8,274 nucleotides of DNA from a virus (taxonomy: Duplodnaviria; Heunggongvirae; Uroviricota; Caudoviricetes), in the IMG/VR virus record IMGVR_UViG_3300014523_000046; one strand, 5' to 3'. Below, one piece after another: positions 939 through 8,206 of this stretch. Numbering within the stretch: position 1 is the first letter of the stretch; each line of letters starts with the position of its first letter. Below the pieces are notes generated by a model that saw nothing but the letters and a program-made list of their open reading frames with translations, searched no databases and had not been told where the DNA came from. The position numbers and the translations under genes were made by a program.

Positions 939-1193
939 TCACTTTCTTAAATCTAACGATAGACGGCTAACATTTAAGTATTGTGAAATATTATCAAATG
1001 TAATCATCATTGATTTACAAAAGATACATTTTGCCCCGAAAGGATTCCTGTCAGAAACATCAAAAGATGATGTTCTATACTGAGAACCATGGCAACACGG
1101 GCATCTAAAGTGAATATGGTTTGTAATATTATCTACCTCAAAGTGCCACAACATGAACAGCCGCGGGGCCTTTAGGTCCGTTCTCAATACCAA
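939..1193 (-). CDS. Candidate small Cys-rich (zinc-ribbon-like) protein, start uncertain
   Basis: ORF contains C-P-C-C ... 21 aa ... C-I-F-C (CxCC...CxxC), a pattern unusual for a random ORF, and ends 8 nt before a terminator hairpin. The codon at 1193 is TTG with AGGAAG 7 nt upstream; the first ATG is at 1154. Either start overlaps the 3' end of the cspI-like gene (stop 1138) in another frame, which lowers confidence. Confidence 0.3.
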
Positions 1194-1350
1194 ATTCGAC
1201 TTCCTGATTCTCAGTTAACGTTTTGAAATCGTTGCTCTGAATAGCTGAGAAATGGACAAACACATCTTTGCTACCATCTTTCGGCGTGATGAAACCAAAA
1301 CCTTTTTCAGGGTTAAACCATTTCACTAAACCAGTCATTTTGTTAGACAT
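1138..1350 (-). CDS. cspI: Cold-shock protein, CspA family (CspI-like, 70 aa)
   Basis: Translation [70 protein letters not shown] carries the RNP1/RNP2 cold-shock-domain motifs (KGFGFI, VFVHF). Two tandem ATGs at 1353 and 1350; the second gives the canonical MSNKMTGL N-terminus. AAAGGTAATA SD-like sequence upstream, typical of csp genes. Stop TGA 1138-1140. Confidence 0.9.
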
Positions 1351-1353
1351 CAT

Positions 1354-1713
1354 TATTACCTTTTGAAGAAGTTAGCCCTTGGGCAGAATGGTCCGAAAAA
1401 AAATATCAGAGAGAAAAACCAACAAGGAAATCTCAAGAGGTACAAATAATAAAATTATAACAATGACTGCTTCAGATAATTTTGTAACAAACCAGAACAC
1501 CATTAACGCATGATTAACCAACCATAGCAAGGATTACTTTTGTAAAGAAAAACACACGAATGAAACAATAGCTTTATTTATTAATAAAACGTGTCATTCT
1601 GTCTAATGACCTTTTATCTTACCCTTAAGATTTCAAGGATTTTGACTCATGGAAGAGTCCTTTTTATTTAAATTTCACATTCAGCGCTAAAAATAATCCG
1701 ATTTAATATTAAT
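1354..1713 (-). promoter_or_regulatory. AT-rich upstream region of the cspI-like gene (promoter plus probable long 5' UTR)
   Basis: A 360-bp non-coding AT-rich gap between the Rz stop (1714) and the csp start. CspA-family genes characteristically have long structured 5' UTRs. I did not locate an exact cold-box match by eye. Confidence 0.4.
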
Positions 1714-2854: not shown

Positions 2855-3115
2855 ATGGATTACACAAATCTACCTAAACAAACTTTTGCTGATTTAATCG
2901 CACTCAGGCAAGCAGTCGTAGCTCTAATCAACTTGTTGCCGGAGAAGGAAAAGGAATTAGTTAAAGCGCTTCTTAACAGAACTGCCGCCGATTTTTCATC
3001 ATATCCACTGACAGATGACCTTGCGGACCTTCCTGAATTAATTGCAGCGTCCGCCAATAAGCTTACTGAAGAGATTTACCCTCCTCAAAAATCTTCACAA
3101 AATTCCTGCGAGTAA
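2855..3115 (+). CDS. Candidate small acidic protein (86 aa), convergent with and overlapping the 3' end of the DUF1327-like gene
   Basis: ATG at 2855 preceded by AGAGG at about 6 nt spacing. Lies in the 320-bp gap between the endolysin start and the upstream gene. Its 3' end overlaps the minus-strand gene by about 53 nt. No recognisable family. Confidence 0.25.
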   Translation: MDYTNLPKQTFADLIALRQAVVALINLLPEKEKELVKALLNRTAADFSSYPLTDDLADLPELIAASANKLTEEIYPPQKSSQNSCE

Positions 3116-3614
3116 CTTCAATGCAATAATCGTAAAACGCCGCAAACTGCTCATCGCGGCGTTTTTTTTCATCTTCAGAAGGAATCAGCACCGACAATTT
3201 TTTATTCAGATCAGCGACGCTGCCCTCCAGTTTTTCAATGGGCGATTCAATATCATCTTTTTCTGACCGCAATGCCGTCGGTGGCGTCTTCAGAGAACCA
3301 GTAATTCTTCCCGGTAGCTTTCCTTTGTAGGTTATCCACACATTCTGCGCCTCTAAAATTATGGGGCGCTTTTCCGGCGACTGCTCATCCCCTTCACATA
3401 ACCCGGCAGCAACATCCAGGAAGACCTGTCTGATGCTCCTTCTGGCTGCTGCCTCATAAAACTCCAGCGCGGCACCTTCAACACGGTCCAGCGAGATGTC
3501 CAGGTCAAAAATTTCACCGTCAAAGTGTTTTTTGTCCCGTAAGGCTACAGTTACCGCCACTTTATTCTCAAAATTGCGAACTCCTTTCACAACCAGTTCA
3601 TAGTCTTGAGTCAT
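3063..3614 (-). CDS. DUF1327 (YdfR-like) prophage protein with about 100-aa C-terminal extension (183 aa)
   Basis: N-terminal about 80 aa (MTQDYELVVKGVRNFENKV...DGEIFDLDISLDRVEGAALEFYEAAARRS) match my recollection of the YdfR/DUF1327 family that sits between holin and endolysin in Qin-like prophages. The track ORF begins at a TTG (3635); the first ATG is at 3614, just after the holin stop. Stop TAA 3063-3065. Confidence 0.65.
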   Translation of the reverse strand: MTQDYELVVKGVRNFENKVAVTVALRDKKHFDGEIFDLDISLDRVEGAALEFYEAAARRSIRQVFLDVAAGLCEGDEQSPEKRPIILEAQNVWITYKGKLPGRITGSLKTPPTALRSEKDDIESPIEKLEGSVADLNKKLSVLIPSEDEKKRRDEQFAAFYDYCIEVTRRNFVKIFEEGKSLQ

Positions 3615-3618
3615 TGGA

Positions 3619-3834
3619 TTACTCTCTTCTCGCAACCTTACGCCTGTCTTCTTTAATCTTGAAATAAAGGTTTGTCAGATACGTCAGCATGCCAAATACC
3701 AGACTACCCAATACACCTATTGCCGCCCACTGTGAGGGCGTGACTTTATCGAGCAACTGTAAAAACCAGTAGCCAGCACTGCCTGCAGAGGTGCTGTAGG
3801 CGATGCCCGTTGTTAACTTATCCATGGATTTCAT
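3619..3834 (-). CDS. Class II holin, phage-21 S-like pinholin (71 aa) with dual-start motif
   Basis: Within track ORF 3619-3918, ATG at 3834 with strong SD (GGAGGTGAGGCT-ATG) gives [71 protein letters not shown]: two TM segments, a charged C-terminus, and the MKSM dual start (Met1/Met4) typical of S21. Confidence 0.9.
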
Positions 3835-3924
3835 AGCCTCACCTCCGCAGATAACGGATGGTGTACACGGTTTGGTTCGAAGAAGGAAAGAAGTTACATT
3901 AGCGTAAGGCCCGAACATCTATTC

Positions 3925-3956
3925 AAAAAGAAAAACGCCAGCAATTATTCTGGCGT
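3925..3956 (-). terminator. Intrinsic terminator downstream of the AraC-like gene
   Basis: Perfect 7-bp stem ACGCCAG/CTGGCGT (3935-3941 and 3950-3956) with an 8-nt loop; on the minus strand it is followed by TTTTTCTTTTT (plus 3925-3934). About 70 nt past the AraC stop (4025). Confidence 0.55.
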
Positions 3957-4024
3957 AGCTAAAAATATCGTATAATCTTACACTTCAAAAAATAACTTTA
4001 TAAAATGCCATCACATCATATCTT

Positions 4025-4738
4025 CTAAGAAAATCTTGATAAATATTGGTGCGGAGGCACACCAAAATATCCTCTAAAAACACTTACAAAATATGATGCA
4101 TTGTCATACCCGCATATTCCCGCCACCTTGCCGACAGTATGGTTACTGTAGATCAATAATCTTTGCGCCATCATCATTCGTTCTTCAAGAATTAATTTAC
4201 TAAACGATAATCCTTCGTTTTTTAATTTTCTTTTTAACAAACTCTCGCTCATATATAATCTTGAAGATATATCACAAAGTCTCCATGACGCTGAGATATC
4301 CGAGTGAATAATAGCCTTAACTTTACAACCTAAGCTATTAAGACTTCCGAACAAAAAACTTTGCACTATTTTCTCTGAAGATAAGACAGCAAGACATGCA
4401 AGTGATATTTGATTTCTAACTACATCCACGGTTTTGCTATCACAATTCAAGCATGCAACCAAGTTCCTTAACAATGAAAAATCTTCACATTCTACTATCA
4501 AGTATGACGGATAAAACCTTCTTACAGAAAAAGGTGAGAGTGTGTAGTTTTTAAAGAAATCATTAACTGTTTTCTCCTCAACATCTACGATCATTAGATG
4601 ATCTGTATTTGACGAAAAAAGATCTTTTAAATTGTATTCAATGAGGACAGCATTTCCTTTTTTAAACAAAATATCTTCTTTACCAATTCGGACAACAAAC
4701 GAGTTCAACACCAAAATGATAGAACATATGTATGGCAT
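4025..4738 (-). CDS. AraC/XylS-family transcriptional regulator (237 aa), AT-rich horizontally acquired type
   Basis: C-terminal about 100 aa carry the double helix-turn-helix of AraC/XylS proteins (...SESLLKRKLKNEGLSFSKLILEERMMMAQRLL...VGKVAGICGYDNASYFVSVFRGYFGVPPHQY). The N-terminal domain is not recognisable. The codon at 4747 is GTG and lies inside the SD; ATG at 4738 with AGGTGG 5 nt upstream is the likely start. Very low GC compared with the lysis genes. Confidence 0.85.
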   Translation of the reverse strand: MPYICSIILVLNSFVVRIGKEDILFKKGNAVLIEYNLKDLFSSNTDHLMIVDVEEKTVNDFFKNYTLSPFSVRRFYPSYLIVECEDFSLLRNLVACLNCDSKTVDVVRNQISLACLAVLSSEKIVQSFLFGSLNSLGCKVKAIIHSDISASWRLCDISSRLYMSESLLKRKLKNEGLSFSKLILEERMMMAQRLLIYSNHTVGKVAGICGYDNASYFVSVFRGYFGVPPHQYLSRFS

Positions 4739-5144
4739 ATTATCCACCTGATATCATTGGGGTTACACCAGGTAAGTATAGGTGGAAAATCAATATTCGC
4801 CAGTTCAACAATAAGGAAAATCTCATTGCATCACAACTATAAAACCATGTGTTTAACTCACAAAAAACAAATCATTAAACTAATCTGTTATATTATAATA
4901 GCTGCGTGCAATAATAATATTATATGCTCTTAATATTCACTTGAAATATCTTCATATAAAAACAGATTGAATAAAATCTTTTGGGGCTGGTATGTTTACC
5001 AACATTAAATTGCATCTCAATGTTTTCTTTAGCGTGAACAGGATTTTTATACAAACTGACACTATGGGCATCATAGCGTAGTTTTTACGATTGTAAATAT
5101 CCTGCATACAGGAACTCATCACTTTCAGATGATATCGCATACAG
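4739..5144 (-). promoter_or_regulatory. AT-rich intergenic region upstream of the AraC-like gene (probable promoter and silencing region)
   Basis: About 400 bp of strongly AT-rich non-coding sequence with many A/T tracts, between the DUF523/DUF1722 stop and the AraC start. The only ORF here (4952-5140) looks spurious. Typical of xenogeneic promoter regions; no specific hexamers assigned. Confidence 0.35.
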
Positions 5145-6104
5145 TTAATTCACCATCAGTCTTAGAGCCAGTTCTTCCGGATAGGGATCGAAGTAATTCT
5201 GTGTAAGCAAGTAATCATTAGGATACTCACCCAGATAATGCTTCAGCAGAGTCAACGGCGCAAGAAGAGGCAATGTGCCAAAGCGATAGTTAAGTATAAC
5301 CTCGCTCAACTCTTTACGCTGGCGTGTACTTAAGTAATTACTAAAATACCCCTGTATATGCATCAGCACATTCGTGTGATTTTTACGTGATGCTGGTTTT
5401 CTGAGAATCGCCATCAGATTATCACGATACACCTCAAAGTATGATTCAAGGTCCGCCCACTCGTGTATTGCAGCCACAAATGGTCCCATATCTTTATAGC
5501 CTGCCTGGCTATGCGCCAACAACTGAAGCTTATAACGACTATGAAAAGCTAATAACTCTCTTCTTGATAATTTCTCCTTGTAAAGATGATTGAGCTCATG
5601 CAAAGCAAAAACTCTTTCAATAAAATTCTCACGAAGCACTGGATCATGTAATCGCCCATCCTCTTCAACCGGTAGCCAGGAAAACTTTTCCATCAAAGTG
5701 CTCGTAAATAGTCCCACTCCATCTTTACGACCTCGATTACCATTTTCATCATAGACACGCACGCGCTCCATGCCACAGCTGGGAGATTTAGCACAAACCA
5801 CAAACCCCGATACATCCTTTAATTTGTCCATATAAGAACGACTAAACTCTGTCATTCTCTCTGTCACATCCTCATTCTGGTCGTGGCTGAAACACATCCG
5901 TATATTTCCTTGCTTCGAGCGCACAAGTCGTAGAGCAGGACGCGGAACTGGCAGCCCTATAGCCATTTCCGGACATACTGGTCTGAATGTTACCCATTCC
6001 ACTAATTTGTCCATTAAAAAGTCATCTCTTTTGTGACCACCATCAAAACGAACAGCAGAACCGCCCAAACAACCGCTGATCCCAATCACAGGTTTTTTTA
6101 TCAT
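5145..6104 (-). CDS. DUF523 (TudS-like Fe-S) + DUF1722 (YbgA-like) fusion protein (319 aa)
   Basis: N-terminus MIKKPVIGISGCLGGSAVRFDGGH with Cys at about 12, 44 and 104 (SPSCG) matches the three-Cys [4Fe-4S] ligand pattern of DUF523/TudS-type proteins. The C-terminal half is helical and YbgA/DUF1722-like. ATG at 6104 preceded by AAGGGGGAGGAA. Stop TAA 5145-5147. Confidence 0.8.
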   Translation of the reverse strand: MIKKPVIGISGCLGGSAVRFDGGHKRDDFLMDKLVEWVTFRPVCPEMAIGLPVPRPALRLVRSKQGNIRMCFSHDQNEDVTERMTEFSRSYMDKLKDVSGFVVCAKSPSCGMERVRVYDENGNRGRKDGVGLFTSTLMEKFSWLPVEEDGRLHDPVLRENFIERVFALHELNHLYKEKLSRRELLAFHSRYKLQLLAHSQAGYKDMGPFVAAIHEWADLESYFEVYRDNLMAILRKPASRKNHTNVLMHIQGYFSNYLSTRQRKELSEVILNYRFGTLPLLAPLTLLKHYLGEYPNDYLLTQNYFDPYPEELALRLMVN

Positions 6105-6296
6105 TTCCTCCCCCTTGACTAATTCATTAACACATAAACTTTGTAGTGCACGGACTAAATTGCCTTTCTGGCTTCATCACTGACAATTTTTCTGTTATTG
6201 ACTATTCCTAATATAGTAGGAAAGTTCTTTAAGTGATCGGTCGTACTCATCTATCTTTCATACTTACTCTCAACTATCAAAAGTACAGGATTTATT

Positions 6297-6821
6297 ATGA
6301 AGTTATGGCCTGTGTTGACTGGCATTGCACTCTCTTTCACTCTTATAGCATGTAAGGCCCCGACACCACCTAAAGGTGTGCAGCCGATTACAAATTTTGA
6401 CGCCAACCGCTACCTCGGAAAATGGTATGAAATAGCTCGCCTCGAGAACTGGTTCGAACGTGGTCTGGAACAGGTCAGCGCTACTTATGAAAAACGGAAC
6501 GACGGAGGGATTCGCGTACTTAACCGTGGATACGATCCAACGAAAAACAAATGGAGCGAGAGCGAAGGTAAAGCATACTTTACTGGAGATACTAAAACTG
6601 CAGCGTTGAAAGTTTCGTTTTTTGGCCCCTTCTATGGTGGCTATAATGTAATCAAGCTGGATGATGAGTATAAGTATGCTCTTGTCAGTGGTCCGAACAG
6701 AGAATACCTATGGATTCTGGCAAGGACCCAAACTATTCCAGATAATGTAAAAGCAGACTATGTGCGTACCGCTCAAAAGTTGGGATTCAATGTCAATGAA
6801 CTATTATGGGTTAAACAATAA
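6297..6821 (+). CDS. Bacterial lipocalin Blc-like outer-membrane lipoprotein (174 aa)
   Basis: Signal peptide with lipobox L-I-A-C (MKLWPVLTGIALSFTLIACKAPTPPKG) and lipocalin core motifs shared with Blc (NFDANRYLGKWYEIAR, KVSFFGPFYGGYNVI, YLWILAR). SD AGGA 6 nt before the ATG. Plus strand, opposite to the surrounding phage genes. Confidence 0.9.
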   Translation: MKLWPVLTGIALSFTLIACKAPTPPKGVQPITNFDANRYLGKWYEIARLENWFERGLEQVSATYEKRNDGGIRVLNRGYDPTKNKWSESEGKAYFTGDTKTAALKVSFFGPFYGGYNVIKLDDEYKYALVSGPNREYLWILARTQTIPDNVKADYVRTAQKLGFNVNELLWVKQ

Positions 6822-6849
6822 AATCCCCACCCGAAATGATACTTATTAG

Positions 6850-6877
6850 AAAAAAAACCAGCCTTTGGGGAGGCTGG
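6850..6877 (-). terminator. Intrinsic terminator downstream of Q (tR'-like); may also serve the convergent blc-like gene
   Basis: Perfect 7-bp stem CCAGCCT/AGGCTGG (6858-6864 and 6871-6877) with a 6-nt loop; on the minus strand it is followed by an 8-T run (plus A-run 6850-6857). Located about 100 nt downstream of the Q stop and 37 nt after the blc-like stop. Confidence 0.65.
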
Positions 6878-6879
6878 CT

Positions 6880-6977
6880 AAATCAGGAAACAAGCTGTTA
6901 TATGATAATAACTACGTTGCGATTCCAACATTTAAAATGTTAGACTAATGAAAATCAGACAGCAACTTTTCCTTTAA
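6880..6977 (-). promoter_or_regulatory. Candidate late promoter / Q-utilisation region between Q and the terminator
   Basis: By analogy with lambdoid pR'-qut-tR' organisation. Minus-strand hexamers TTGCTG (6965-6960) and TAACAT (6942-6937) with 17-bp spacing are one possible -35/-10 pair, which would predict a short transcript of about 80 nt. The assignment is speculative. Confidence 0.3.
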
Positions 6978-7355
6978 TTATTTCGAACAATCAGCATCCA
7001 TCTCCAATCGGAGATCCAACACCATCAGCATGCCCTCCACTACGCCCTCAGCTTTCTGGAGCATCCTGCCAACCCAACAATCAGATCGCCCATGCTTACG
7101 TGCAAGCGCCATAAAAGTCATGCCGCCGACATAATAGTCCACCAATAAATCATGTAAATCGCTGTTGTTTTTTTTCAGGCGAGCCATACATTCACAAATG
7201 ATCATCGCGTCATCGTCACAGCATTGCGGACGAGATCTTACTTTTGAAGGAATTAATCCCTTAAAACCGGCGGCAATGGACGACCAGGTCACATCTTCAT
7301 GATTATTAGCCGCCCATGCCCCCCAACGCTCAAGAACCATCTGAATATCACGCAT
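6978..7355 (-). CDS. Phage antitermination protein Q, short QuuD-like type (125 aa)
   Basis: Translation from ATG 7355 ([26 protein letters not shown]...[32 protein letters not shown]) matches my recollection of the approximately 127-aa Q-like antiterminators of DLP12-type prophages (Phage_antitermQ family). The track start at 7370 is a TTG; ATG 7355 has GGAG 8 nt upstream. Followed by a terminator, as expected for Q. Confidence 0.8.
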
Positions 7356-7372
7356 CAACTTACTCCACAAAA

Positions 7373-8206
7373 TTAGGCCAGCACACCAATTGCCAGCGCG
7401 CGATCGATAAATCGAAAAATCAGCTCCAGTTGGGAGCCATACTTCTCTTCAAATGCCACGGTATCCGTATGCAACTCGTCGTGATGCTTTCTGCACAAAG
7501 GCAACACAAAGAGATCATGTGCTTTGGTTCCCATTCCGCCCTGCCCGTGACCAATCAGATGATGCGGATCGTCGGCTGGCATACCGCAGCAAGCACACGG
7601 CTGTGTCTTAACCCAGCGTGTGTATTTCTCCTTAACCCAACGGTGACGTTTAGGCAGCTTCATGAAAGATTCCGGAGACTCTGGATCAACGGTGATGCTT
7701 ACCACCGTCTTTTCCTGTGATGGGTTTTGTTGCTGGTGGGCGTGAGGCAACGGTGCAAGATTTTTTGTGCGCTGTTTCAATATGCTGGTGGCGGTCTGCT
7801 CTCCCGGTACGATGTCGCTTTCGCGGTACACCGAGCAGTTTTTTTCCGCTGGTAATCCCAGCGAGCGACGTAATACCGCTTCCGGTAGCGCGTCCGCCAC
7901 CTGATTGCGGACCGCCCACCAGGATAATTCAGCCAGAGATAATTCACGCTCCTGCGTACCGCTTATTGTGTGACCGATGACGTCAATCATCCATGCTGAC
8001 AGGTTTTGATGAGCAAGTTGCTCGAGTGATTCGGATGTCTGGTCACGCAGCTGGTTGTCGCAGTGCCAGCACAACACCATTGCGCCGGTACCATAACGGT
8101 GAATAACGGTTTCGCTGTGATGATAATCGCCGAGTGGCCACTGGCAGGATTTAATATGGCGCAACAGCCAGTCAGACAATGCACCAGCACTGATCTTACC
8201 CAGCAA
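7373..8206 (-). CDS. Lambdoid nin-region protein with C-terminal Cys/His-rich DUF1364/DUF968-like (HNH-like) motif; start uncertain
   Basis: C-terminal segment ...[45 protein letters not shown] has the CxxC...HH...GTK...C..HH pattern I associate with YbcO/YdfU-type prophage proteins found upstream of Q. The track start codon (8206) is TTG with no SD; the first in-frame ATG is at 8080. Stop TAA 7373-7375, 17 nt before the Q start. Confidence 0.55.

What the first reader, a model, noticed from the sequence alone, without database searches (positions are those of the whole stretch)
3925..5144. AT-rich AraC/XylS-family regulator as a self-contained unit inside the late operon
The gene has a recognisable C-terminal AraC HTH but an unassignable N-terminal domain, a strong SD, about 400 bp of extremely AT-rich upstream DNA and its own intrinsic terminator (3925-3956). 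That is the signature of a horizontally acquired, probably H-NS-silenced regulator. Prophage-encoded AraC-like regulators in pathogenic E. coli are known to rewire host acid-resistance and virulence regulons, so this one may control chromosomal targets rather than phage genes.
Basis: partly seen in the sequence, partly recalled or inferred. Interest (0 to 1): 0.6.

Follow-up and report, generated by a model that had tools for sequence, protein, structure and literature searches.

The report
Prophage-borne PatE-like AraC regulator moron
This is an intact, unnamed AraC-type regulator gene with its own terminator, carried with two stress-related cargo genes between the late-gene activator and the lysis genes of a lambda-like E. 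coli prophage; it is a new relative of phage regulators known to switch on host acid resistance, so it is credible and testable but not surprising.

Summary
A 237-aa AraC/XylS gene (4025-4738, minus strand) has an AGGTGG Shine-Dalgarno, 406 bp of 31.5% GC upstream DNA and a hairpin plus T-run terminator (3956-3925). It lies between Q (6978-7355) and the holin (3619-3834) of a Qin-like lambdoid prophage.

The N-terminal domain can be assigned. It aligns over its full length with PatE (47%), PsrA (38%), GadW (33%), AppY and YdeO, and its model matches AraC-type cupin regulatory domains.

The gene is under purifying selection (dN/dS about 0.2). About 20% of complete E. coli genomes and several isolated phages carry it, always in the order Q, Blc lipocalin, RudS tRNA desulfidase, regulator, holin. 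Chromosomal blc-rudS loci of other enterobacteria lack the regulator, so it is a separate add-on (a moron). Its terminator is conserved and is lost together with the gene.

Most likely it activates host acid-resistance genes (gadE/hdeA), as PatE, PsrB and AppY do. This rests on homology alone. H-NS silencing is supported only by AT-richness; the nucleation-motif and curvature proxies were negative. No database or paper names this protein.

Verdict: a new member of a known kind, of moderate interest.

The parts
4025..4738 (-). AraC/XylS-family regulator, 237 aa. It has an N-terminal AraC-type cupin regulatory domain (about residues 1-135) and a C-terminal double-HTH DNA-binding domain (about 136-234). 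It belongs to the PatE/Psr/GadW/AppY/YdeO subgroup.
4744..4749 (-). Shine-Dalgarno AGGTGG, 5 nt upstream of the ATG at 4738
   Evidence: Read directly from the sequence. Invariant in all four aligned alleles.
4739..5144 (-). AT-rich intergenic region between the rudS stop and the regulator start (406 bp, 31.5% GC). It holds the candidate promoters and has indels between alleles.
   Evidence: A 54-nt indel and an allele-specific divergent stretch lie at about 4830-5000.
5070..5097 (-). Distal promoter-like site TTTACA-16-TATGAT (10 of 12 matches), in a block that is invariant even in the most diverged allele
   Evidence: scan. (conserved in window, IdasGreatGrand, Lambda_ev203 and 19KM1831). 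Present in 71 of 76 viral contigs. Function not shown.
5052..5085 (-). Stable hairpin overlapping the -10 of the distal promoter-like site. It could be a weak rudS 3' terminator or stabiliser, or an operator. Unexplained.
   Evidence: dG -12.7 kcal/mol, z -6.2, 0 of 200 shuffles fold as well. Listed as a weak terminator-like site.
4775..4802 (-). Proximal promoter-like site TGGCGA-16-TATACT (weak -35, good -10), about 30 nt upstream of the ATG, in a conserved block
   Evidence: Read from the sequence and alignment A1. The pattern is present in 75 of 76 viral contigs. Function not shown.
3925..3956 (-). Intrinsic terminator of the regulator gene (ACGCCAG-loop-CTGGCGT followed by TTTTCTTTTT), about 70 nt after the stop codon and about 90 nt before the holin start
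   Evidence: It is deleted together with the gene in the IS1 variants.
5145..6104 (-). Neighbouring cargo gene: RudS-type enzyme (TudS/DUF523 fused to DUF1722), annotated 'YbgA family'
   Evidence: Pfam. The ortholog RudS_vir of phage 1H12 lowers tRNA 4-thiouridine when overexpressed (PMC11417400). Phage 1H12 carries the same cassette.
6297..6821 (+). Neighbouring cargo gene: outer-membrane lipocalin Blc, convergent with late transcription
   Evidence: Pfam Lipocalin_2; NCBIfam Blc scores 312 bits, above its cutoff.
6846..6879 (-). Strong terminator about 100 nt downstream of Q, a candidate tR' of the late promoter region
   Evidence: 9-bp stem followed by T8. dG -14.2 kcal/mol, z -3.9. The assignment as tR' is inference from the lambdoid layout.
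6978..7355 (-). Late-gene antiterminator Q (PF06530). It is the upstream end of the Q-to-holin mosaic module 3618-7397.
3619..3834 (-). P21-type class II holin with a dual start (MKSM), the first lysis gene downstream of the regulator's terminator

Best explanation
The gene encodes a functional transcription factor of the PatE/Psr/GadW/AppY/YdeO branch of the AraC/XylS family. It is carried as a moron in the Q-to-holin slot of a lambdoid prophage, the slot where Stx phages carry stx.

Shown here:
- The protein is intact and under purifying selection.
- It has an AraC-type cupin N-domain and a double-HTH C-domain. The recognition-helix residues (SESLLKRKL, SYF) are those of the acid-resistance regulators.
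- It has its own conserved intrinsic terminator just before the holin.
- It was added next to a blc-rudS pair captured from an enterobacterial chromosome.

Inferred:
- In the lysogen it is transcribed from its own promoter(s) in the AT-rich upstream region, probably at a low, H-NS-damped level and induced by stress or stationary phase.
- The terminator stops this transcript before the lysis genes.
- The protein binds AT-rich sites at host promoters such as gadE and hdeA. It raises glutamate-dependent acid resistance, as PatE, PsrB and AppY do.
- After induction, Q-modified RNA polymerase starting downstream of Q reads through both terminators, so the regulator is also made late in lytic growth.
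For: Family and fold:
- Pfam double HTH.
- The YdeO profile aligns at 1-231 with E 7e-32.
- Identity to PatE is 47% over the full length and 65% in the DNA-binding domain. PsrA is 38% and 56%. GadW is 33%, AppY 29%, YdeO 28%. AdiY is about 33%.
- K169 corresponds to AppY K170, whose mutation abolishes DNA binding (PMC10057817). It is invariant in the family alignment.

Function of relatives:
- PatE and PsrB activate gadE and hdeA and raise acid resistance. PsrA and PsrB act through GadE/YhiF (PMC10877973).
- AppY binds gadE, gadY and slp directly (PMC10057817).

Selection:
- dN/dS is 0.20-0.23 overall and 0.11 in the DNA-binding domain.
- The ORF is intact in 78 of 80 viral contigs.

Unit structure:
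- The terminator is invariant among diverged alleles and is lost with the gene in IS1 deletions.
- GC is 32-33%, against 43-52% for the neighbours.
- The regulator is absent from all chromosomal blc-rudS loci of other Enterobacterales. It was found in 1 of 64 loci, a phage-like contig. A MerR/MlrA-type regulator sits by rudS there instead.

Late-operon context:
- Q lies upstream, with a strong terminator after Q and the holin downstream.
- The order Q, Blc, RudS, regulator, holin holds in 70 of 80 viral contigs (the other 10 lack one or more of the five genes; seven of them begin too close to the regulator to hold rudS) and in isolated phages.
- psrA also lies downstream of Q in Sakai Sp4.
Against: - No target, binding site, transcript or phenotype was tested.
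- Identity to the nearest characterised relative is only 47%, and 34% in the regulatory domain. The protein scores far below every NCBIfam equivalog cutoff (111 against 348 for YdeO), so the regulon may differ.
- Neither promoter-like site is mapped. Promoter-like hits in the region are no more frequent than in shuffles (8 against 9.6).
- Proxies for H-NS binding other than AT content were negative.
- The upstream region has no similarity to the patE, psrA or appY regulatory regions.
- The late promoter itself was not identified by the consensus scan.
Confidence: 0.6

Rival explanations
1. The protein regulates host genes, but its regulon is not the GAD/acid-fitness island. It might control respiration or hydrogenase genes as AppY does, porins as EnvY does, or adhesins as Rns and CsvR do. 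Its signal would be sensed through its diverged N-terminal domain.
For: The N-domain is only 34% identical to PatE and 22-24% to GadW, AppY and PsrA. The variable positions of the second recognition helix differ: SYFVSVF here, SYFTYVF in PatE, SYFICAF in AppY. AppY has targets outside acid resistance. The best full-length structural matches are CsvR, Rns and ToxT.
Against: Most characterised relatives compared here converge on acid resistance: PatE, PsrA/B, GadW, GadX, YdeO, AppY and AdiY; EnvY, compared at 26%, does not. The DNA-binding domain is 65% identical to PatE's, and the first recognition helix is identical to PatE's.
Confidence: 0.2
2. The protein is a local regulator. It controls the adjacent cargo genes (rudS, blc) or phage functions such as lysis timing or late-gene read-through, rather than chromosomal genes.
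For: The trio Blc-RudS-regulator is tightly linked: rudS occurs in 1136 genomes and the regulator's 3' region in 1070. The gene order is invariant. AraC-family proteins often regulate neighbours. The gene sits directly before the holin.
Against: Chromosomal blc-rudS loci in 42 other Enterobacterales lack any homolog and use a MerR/MlrA-type regulator. Relatives such as PatE, AppY and PsrA sit in unrelated contexts and act on host genes. Prophages that lost the regulator to IS1 keep rudS and blc. The regulator diverges and recombines independently of rudS and blc: dS is 0.3-0.8 against 0.05.
Confidence: 0.12
3. The gene is a silent passenger with no role: a decaying or permanently silenced gene that hitch-hikes with the Q-holin module.
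For: The gene and its upstream region are very AT-rich, so silencing is plausible. The gene has been lost to IS1 in some genomes without loss of the neighbours. No expression data were found.
Against: dN/dS is about 0.2, and 0.11 in the DNA-binding domain. The ORF is intact in 78 of 80 viral contigs and in over 1000 genomes across three allelic lineages. The Shine-Dalgarno, the terminator and the upstream blocks are conserved. Isolated phages keep the gene.
Confidence: 0.05

Closest known systems
[not shown]
   Same: Closest characterised relative: 47% identity over the full length and 65% in the DNA-binding domain. The first recognition helix, SESLLKRKLK, is identical. Both are prophage-borne, AT-rich (35% GC) and similar in size (247 against 237 aa). 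PatE activates gadE, gadBC and hdeAB (PMC10877973).
   Different: PatE lies at the prophage end, after the tail-fibre genes and next to an IS remnant, not between Q and the holin. The N-domain is only 34% identical. The regulatory regions share no similarity. The function of the window protein is untested.
[not shown]
   Same: Same subfamily: 38% identity over the full length and 56% in the DNA-binding domain. The second recognition helix resembles PsrA's (SYFISVF against SYFVSVF). psrA is also placed downstream of the Q antiterminator in a lambdoid prophage. Both act on the host GAD regulon.
   Different: The neighbours differ: a CAAX protease gene and tRNA genes rather than blc and rudS. According to the review, Psr regulators are associated with effector loci of LEE-positive strains. 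The window gene is spread across commensal and environmental E. coli.
AppY (DLP12 prophage, E. coli K-12)
   Same: Prophage AraC-like regulator with very similar base composition (CDS 32% GC, upstream 28% GC). DNA-binding residue K170 corresponds to K169 here. AppY's expression depends on H-NS, RpoS and ArcA, and it directly activates gadE, gadY and slp (PMC10057817).
   Different: Only 29% identical. AppY lies beyond the tail-fibre remnants at the prophage end.
GadW / GadX / YdeO / AdiY (chromosomal acid-resistance AraC regulators)
   Same: Full-length homology, including the N-terminal MxxxCS(V/I)I start: GadW 33%, YdeO 28%, AdiY about 33%. The model superposes on the GadX DNA-binding domain at rmsd 1.2-1.9 A with 37-40% identity.
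   Different: Far below the NCBIfam equivalog cutoffs (111/348 for YdeO, 89/500 for GadX), so it is not an ortholog or a truncated copy of any of them. It is phage-borne.
Moron architecture in the Q-S slot (as for stx in Stx phages, nmpC in DLP12)
   Same: Cargo lies between Q and the lysis cassette, with a terminator after Q, distinct composition and its own terminator. The cargo differs between phages that share this slot.
   Different: This cargo is a three-gene set of mixed origin. A blc-rudS pair of enterobacterial chromosomal origin sits beside a separately acquired regulator.

Membership tests
AraC/XylS family | C-terminal domain of about 100 aa with two helix-turn-helix motifs, scoring above the Pfam gathering scores | tested here: met
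   [not shown]
AraC/XylS family | N-terminal regulatory/dimerisation domain of the AraC cupin type (present in most two-domain members) | tested here: met
   [not shown]
Acid-resistance AraC subgroup (GadX/GadW/YdeO/AppY/AdiY/PatE/Psr) | Full-length sequence homology, including the N-domain and the conserved recognition helices | tested here: met
   The YdeO profile aligns at 1-231 with E 7e-32. PatE aligns at 1-237 at 47% and GadW at 1-232 at 33%. SESLLKxKL and SYF are invariant, and K169 corresponds to AppY K170.
Acid-resistance AraC subgroup (GadX/GadW/YdeO/AppY/AdiY/PatE/Psr) | Orthology to a named member (NCBIfam equivalog cutoff) | tested here: not met
   Best scores are 111 against 348 for YdeO and 89 against 500 for GadX. 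The protein forms a distinct ortholog group. Databases name it only 'helix-turn-helix domain-containing protein' or 'AraC family transcriptional regulator'.
Acid-resistance AraC subgroup (GadX/GadW/YdeO/AppY/AdiY/PatE/Psr) | Activates gadE/hdeA or another acid-resistance promoter and raises acid survival | not testable with these tools
   Needs expression, ChIP and acid-challenge experiments.
Phage moron | An extra gene, in a slot whose content differs between related phages, with base composition unlike its neighbours | tested here: met
   The Q-S slot holds nmpC in DLP12, and a CAAX protease gene, psrA and tRNA genes in Sakai Sp4. GC is 32-33% against 43-52%. The gene is absent from chromosomal blc-rudS loci.
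Phage moron | Own transcription terminator | tested here: met
   Hairpin plus T-run at 3956-3925. It is conserved across alleles and lost with the gene. Termination activity itself was not measured.
Phage moron | Own promoter, expressed from the repressed prophage | tested here: inconclusive
   There are two conserved promoter-like sites, 5097-5070 and 4802-4775. Promoter-like hits are not enriched over shuffles, and there are no transcript data.
H-NS-silenced xenogeneic DNA | Extended AT-rich tract well below the host GC content | tested here: met
   The 1220 bp at 3925-5144 have 32.3% GC. E. coli has about 51% GC (general knowledge).
H-NS-silenced xenogeneic DNA | High-affinity nucleation motif (TCGATAAATT-like) or intrinsic curvature (phased A-tracts) | tested here: not met
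   There are 0 motif matches with up to 2 mismatches in 4739-5144 and 1 in the CDS. The AA/TT periodicity at 9.5-11.5 bp is no higher than in dinucleotide shuffles (fraction at or above the observed value 0.15-0.23).
H-NS-silenced xenogeneic DNA | H-NS occupancy and derepression in an hns mutant | not testable with these tools
   Needs ChIP or expression data from a strain that carries the locus.

The most novel reading that the evidence does not exclude
The regulator sits in the stx-equivalent slot, so Q-antiterminated late transcription reads through it. It may therefore couple prophage induction to a reprogramming of the host stress regulon: acid resistance through GadE, together with RudS-mediated loss of tRNA 4-thiouridine and Blc. 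On this reading the three genes form a phage-delivered stress-tolerance module found in about a fifth of E. coli, with a regulon or signal distinct from PatE, Psr and AppY.
Probability: 0.12. Interest if true: 0.55.

Novelty: new member of a known kind. Interest (0 to 1): 0.35.

Why it matters
Prophage AraC-like regulators (AppY, PatE, PsrA/B) show how phages wire themselves into host stress and virulence networks. Only a handful have been studied, and mostly in O157:H7 or K-12.

This uncharacterised ortholog group is common. It occurs in about 1070 of 5426 complete E. coli genomes, in an E. coli B laboratory derivative and in isolated, plaque-forming lambdoid phages. Clean lysogen-versus-non-lysogen experiments are therefore easy to set up.

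If it activates the GAD system, it would be a widespread contributor to strain-to-strain differences in acid tolerance. Its position between Q and the holin also offers a simple system for asking how moron terminators protect lysogens from leaky lysis-gene expression.

Tried and rejected
- The primary papers on PatE (PMC3416394) and PsrB (PMC4288888) are not held. PatE and PsrA sequences were taken from the Sakai genome instead. PsrB was not retrieved; its 90% identity to PsrA comes from the review.
- A search for H-NS nucleation motifs and a test for A-tract phasing were both negative.
- The upstream and downstream regions were compared with those of patE, psrA, appY, gadW and ydeO. Only chance 10-12-mers matched.
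- PADLOC found no defence-system match for the regulator or its neighbours.
- Rfam found nothing in 3925-5144. The sub-threshold hit at 6849-6892 is just the terminator hairpin.
- No tRNA genes are present, unlike the psrA locus.
- One idea was that a Salmonella homolog next to RudS (orf242/orf319 of SPI-2) would show a conserved RudS-AraC pair. The Salmonella hits turned out to be AdiY between adiA and adiC, and chromosomal rudS loci have no homolog, so the idea was rejected.
- The small ORF 4952-5140 in the upstream region, annotated in IdasGreatGrand, was rejected as a gene because frame-breaking indels occur in Lambda_ev203.
- A literature search for expression data in E. coli B gave nothing specific.
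- The consensus scan did not identify the late promoter downstream of Q.
Full report
WHERE THE WINDOW COMES FROM

The window is 100% identical over the queried stretch 3900-5200 to a prophage in E. coli PSJ-07 (NZ_AP027619). The prophage lies beside rspB/ynfA, the Qin site. That prophage looks complete, from integrase to tail protein J.

All late genes in the window are on the minus strand:
- a DUF968/YdfU gene (7373 onwards)
- Q antiterminator, PF06530 (6978-7355)
- a Blc lipocalin on the opposite strand (6297-6821)
- a DUF523+DUF1722 'YbgA family' gene (5145-6104)
- the AraC-like gene (4025-4738)
- a P21-type holin (3619-3834)
- a DUF1327/YdfR gene, a lysozyme, Rz, and cold-shock genes

CHECKING THE OBSERVATION

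Every stated feature is in the sequence.
- The ATG at 4738 follows AGGTGG (4749-4744) after 5 nt.
- The 406 bp between the upstream stop codon and this ATG have 31.5% GC. The coding sequence has 33.3% GC (GC3 30.7%). The neighbours have 43-52%.
- The terminator is a 7-bp stem (3956-3935) followed by TTTTCTTTTT down to 3925. Its dG is -11.3 kcal/mol, and only 1 of 200 dinucleotide shuffles folds as well.

Conservation is the stronger evidence for the terminator. The hairpin and T-run are invariant in three allelic lineages whose surrounding intergenic DNA is only 60-75% identical. Among 80 IMG/VR contigs the hairpin is exact in 66, carries one substitution in 2, and carries a 1-nt deletion that shortens the stem to 5 bp in 12.

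The one part that does not hold is the 'unassignable' N-terminal domain (see below).

WHAT THE PROTEIN IS

Pfam sees only the C-terminal double HTH at residues 158-234. Other searches reach further:
- The NCBIfam YdeO profile aligns with residues 1-231 (E 7e-32).
- PHROG 1450, a family of unknown function, matches end to end.

I extracted the characterised relatives from the MG1655 and Sakai genomes. Identities to the window protein:

| Relative | Full length | DNA-binding domain | N-domain |
|---|---|---|---|
| PatE (ECs_0287) | 47% | 65% | 34% |
| PsrA (ECs_1087, read from its upstream ATG) | 38% | 56% | 24% |
| GadW | 33% | 45% | 24% |
| AppY | 29% | 38% | 22% |
| YdeO | 28% | 41% | 19% |
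| GadX | 27% | 40% | 16% |
| EnvY | 26% | 43% | 14% |
| YbcM | 17% | 24% | 11% |

Salmonella AdiY is about 33% identical.

The first recognition helix, SESLLKRKLK, is identical to PatE's. K169 corresponds to AppY K170, whose mutation to Glu abolishes DNA binding (PMC10057817).

An AlphaFold model built on 15 homologs has mean pLDDT 88 and pTM 0.80.
- Foldseek's best full-length matches are CsvR, Rns and ToxT. The GadX DNA-binding domain superposes at 1.2 A.

The N-domain is therefore an ordinary AraC-type cupin regulatory domain. The protein is a two-domain member of the acid-resistance branch of the family.

It scores far below every equivalog cutoff. No database gives it a gene name. It is a separate, uncharacterised ortholog group, not a truncated copy of a chromosomal paralog.

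IS IT FUNCTIONAL?

Three allelic lineages exist:
- the window type (237 aa)
- an IdasGreatGrand/19KM1831 type (86% identical, 243 aa)
- a Lambda_ev203/1H12 type (76% identical, 243 aa)

Pairwise dN/dS is 0.20-0.23. It is 0.11 in the DNA-binding domain and 0.33-0.55 in the N-domain. The ORF is intact in 78 of 80 viral contigs.

Synonymous divergence from the 86% allele jumps from 0.11 in codons 1-135 to 0.76 in codons 136-236. This indicates a recombination junction inside the gene.

The gene is retained in isolated phages: IdasGreatGrand, the Lambda_ev series and 1H12.

CONTEXT AND MODULARITY

BLASTN shows that one mosaic module, window 3618-7397 (Q through holin), is shared by two prophage backbones and by the isolated phages. 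One backbone is Qin-like (ydfU-Q) and the other is DLP12-like (rusA-ylcG-Q). Within the module:
- Q, blc and the DUF523/DUF1722 gene are 96-100% identical between the window and the 86% allele.
- The regulator's 3' half and its downstream spacer drop to 75-78%.
- The upstream spacer carries a 54-nt indel.

The order Q+, Blc-, RudS+, regulator+, holin+ is found in 70 of 80 viral contigs. The other ten lack one or more of the five genes; seven of them begin too close to the regulator to hold rudS.

In complete E. coli genomes:
- The DUF523/DUF1722 gene is in 1136 of 5426.
- The regulator's 3' spacer is in 1070.
- The regulator region is found by megablast in 975.

The regulator is therefore tightly linked to its two neighbours. 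Its origin, however, is separate. I examined 64 chromosomal loci encoding a 66-76% identical RudS in Citrobacter, Enterobacter, Klebsiella, Leclercia and others.
- Blc is adjacent in 42 of them.
- The regulator is in none. The single hit is a phage-like contig mis-binned to a Nanosynbacter MAG.
- In Enterobacter cloacae, a MerR/MlrA-type regulator and a transthyretin-like gene lie between blc and rudS.

The phage thus captured blc-rudS without its native regulator. The AraC-like gene, with its AT-rich leader and terminator, is an independent addition.

In two genomes IS1 has removed the regulator and its terminator together, leaving rudS and blc.

TRANSCRIPTION SIGNALS

About 100 nt downstream of Q lies a strong terminator (6879-6856 plus T8; dG -14.2, z -3.9). 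This fits the lambdoid layout of a late promoter followed by tR'. The promoter itself was not found by the consensus scan, so the assignment is inference.

Two promoter-like sites lie upstream of the regulator, both within blocks that stay conserved even in the 76% allele:
- TTTACA-16-TATGAT at 5097-5070
- TGGCGA-16-TATACT at 4802-4775

They are present in 71 of 76 and 75 of 76 viral contigs respectively.

The distal site overlaps a very stable hairpin (5085-5052; dG -12.7, z -6.2). Its role is unexplained. It could be a rudS 3' end or an operator.

Promoter-like matches are not enriched over shuffles in this AT-rich DNA. The promoter is therefore not established.

LIKELY MECHANISM

Shown:
- an intact, selected AraC-family factor of the PatE/Psr/GadW branch
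- its own conserved terminator placed about 90 nt before the holin start
- separate acquisition
- a position inside the Q-dependent late transcription unit

Inferred:
- In the lysogen the gene is transcribed from its own promoter, and the terminator keeps that transcript out of the lysis cassette.
- The protein activates host acid-resistance promoters as its relatives do. PatE and PsrB act at hdeA and gadE (PMC10877973). AppY binds gadE, gadY and slp (PMC10057817).
- After induction, Q-modified polymerase reads through both terminators, so the regulator is also made late. The arrangement parallels psrA, which also lies downstream of Q in Sakai Sp4, and stx in Stx phages (general knowledge).

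H-NS silencing is plausible. The composition matches appY (CDS 32% GC, upstream 28% GC), whose expression depends on H-NS among other regulators (PMC10057817). AT-richness is the only evidence here, though. No TCGATAAATT-like site was found, and no A-tract phasing beyond shuffles.

RIVALS

1. A host regulon other than GAD is possible, given the diverged N-domain and second recognition helix.
2. A local role on rudS, blc or lysis is disfavoured. The regulator is absent from chromosomal blc-rudS loci. Its relatives act on host genes. Prophages that lost the regulator keep the cargo.
3. A silent relic is disfavoured by purifying selection and conserved signals.

COMPARISON AND NOVELTY

This is a new member of a known kind: an unnamed ortholog group of prophage AraC-like regulators in a classic moron arrangement.

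It is unusually common. It is not restricted to pathogens: it occurs in human, pig, chicken, dog, wildlife and water isolates and in an E. coli B derivative.

A specialist would not be surprised. The locus is a convenient, testable case, and I found no paper or database entry that characterises this ortholog group.

Noticed in passing
window 5145-6104 (-): The 'YbgA family' gene is a RudS-type fusion (TudS/DUF523 plus DUF1722). The ortholog from phage 1H12, which carries the same cassette, was shown to lower tRNA 4-thiouridine when overexpressed (PMC11417400). That paper states that E. coli lacks TudS/RudS homologues, yet this prophage copy is in 1136 of 5426 complete E. coli genomes.
   Followed up: partly
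window 6297-6821 (+) with 5145-6104 (-); loci L017-L080, e.g. L038 3021-5960: The blc-rudS neighbourhood is ancestral in the chromosomes of Enterobacter, Leclercia, Citrobacter and others (42 of 64 loci). There a MerR/MlrA-like regulator and a transthyretin-like gene lie between the two. The phage copy has lost both, leaving only 192 bp between blc and rudS. In the phage, blc is convergent with Q-dependent late transcription.
   Followed up: partly
window about 4330 (codon about 135 of the regulator): There is an intragenic recombination junction. Against the 86% allele, dS is 0.11 in the N-domain half and 0.76 in the DNA-binding half. The high divergence continues into the 3' spacer.
   Followed up: yes
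window 5052-5085 (-): A very stable hairpin (dG -12.7 kcal/mol, z -6.2) lies 60-90 nt after the rudS stop and overlaps the -10 of the conserved promoter-like site. It lacks a good T-run. It could be a rudS 3' end, an operator or an attenuator.
   Followed up: partly
L011 4246-4943; L012 4237-4934; L014 5127-6289; L013 6612-7840: The cargo region attracts insertion sequences. IS1 has replaced the regulator and its terminator in two genomes. An IS3-family element splits rudS in the E. coli B derivative AS19 and in strain 118UI.
   Followed up: partly
window 1092-1508 (-): A full-length cspA thermoregulator match (Rfam RF01766, 112.8 bits against a gathering score of 78) spans the leader and coding region of the prophage cspI-like cold-shock gene at 1138-1350.
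   Followed up: no
window 3063-3635 (-) and 2855-3115 (+): The DUF1327/YdfR-like ORF reads through as 190 aa here, whereas RefSeq marks it as an incomplete pseudogene (3279-3614). A small opposite-strand hypothetical gene (86 aa; no Pfam search was run on it, and NCBIfam and PADLOC gave no match) sits between it and the lysozyme.
   Followed up: no
L069 and L074 (JARKOR010000151.1, JARKOR010000135.1): Two short contigs assigned to a 'Candidatus Nanosynbacter' MAG carry this E. coli phage cargo (rudS 92-97%, regulator 85%, blc 97%). This is almost certainly a binning contaminant.
   Followed up: no
L005 18677-19390 (Sakai ECs_1087, psrA): The Sakai annotation starts psrA at an internal ATG (195 aa). 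The reading frame extends upstream to MVVVCSV..., giving 237 aa that align with the N-terminus of the whole family.
   Followed up: partly
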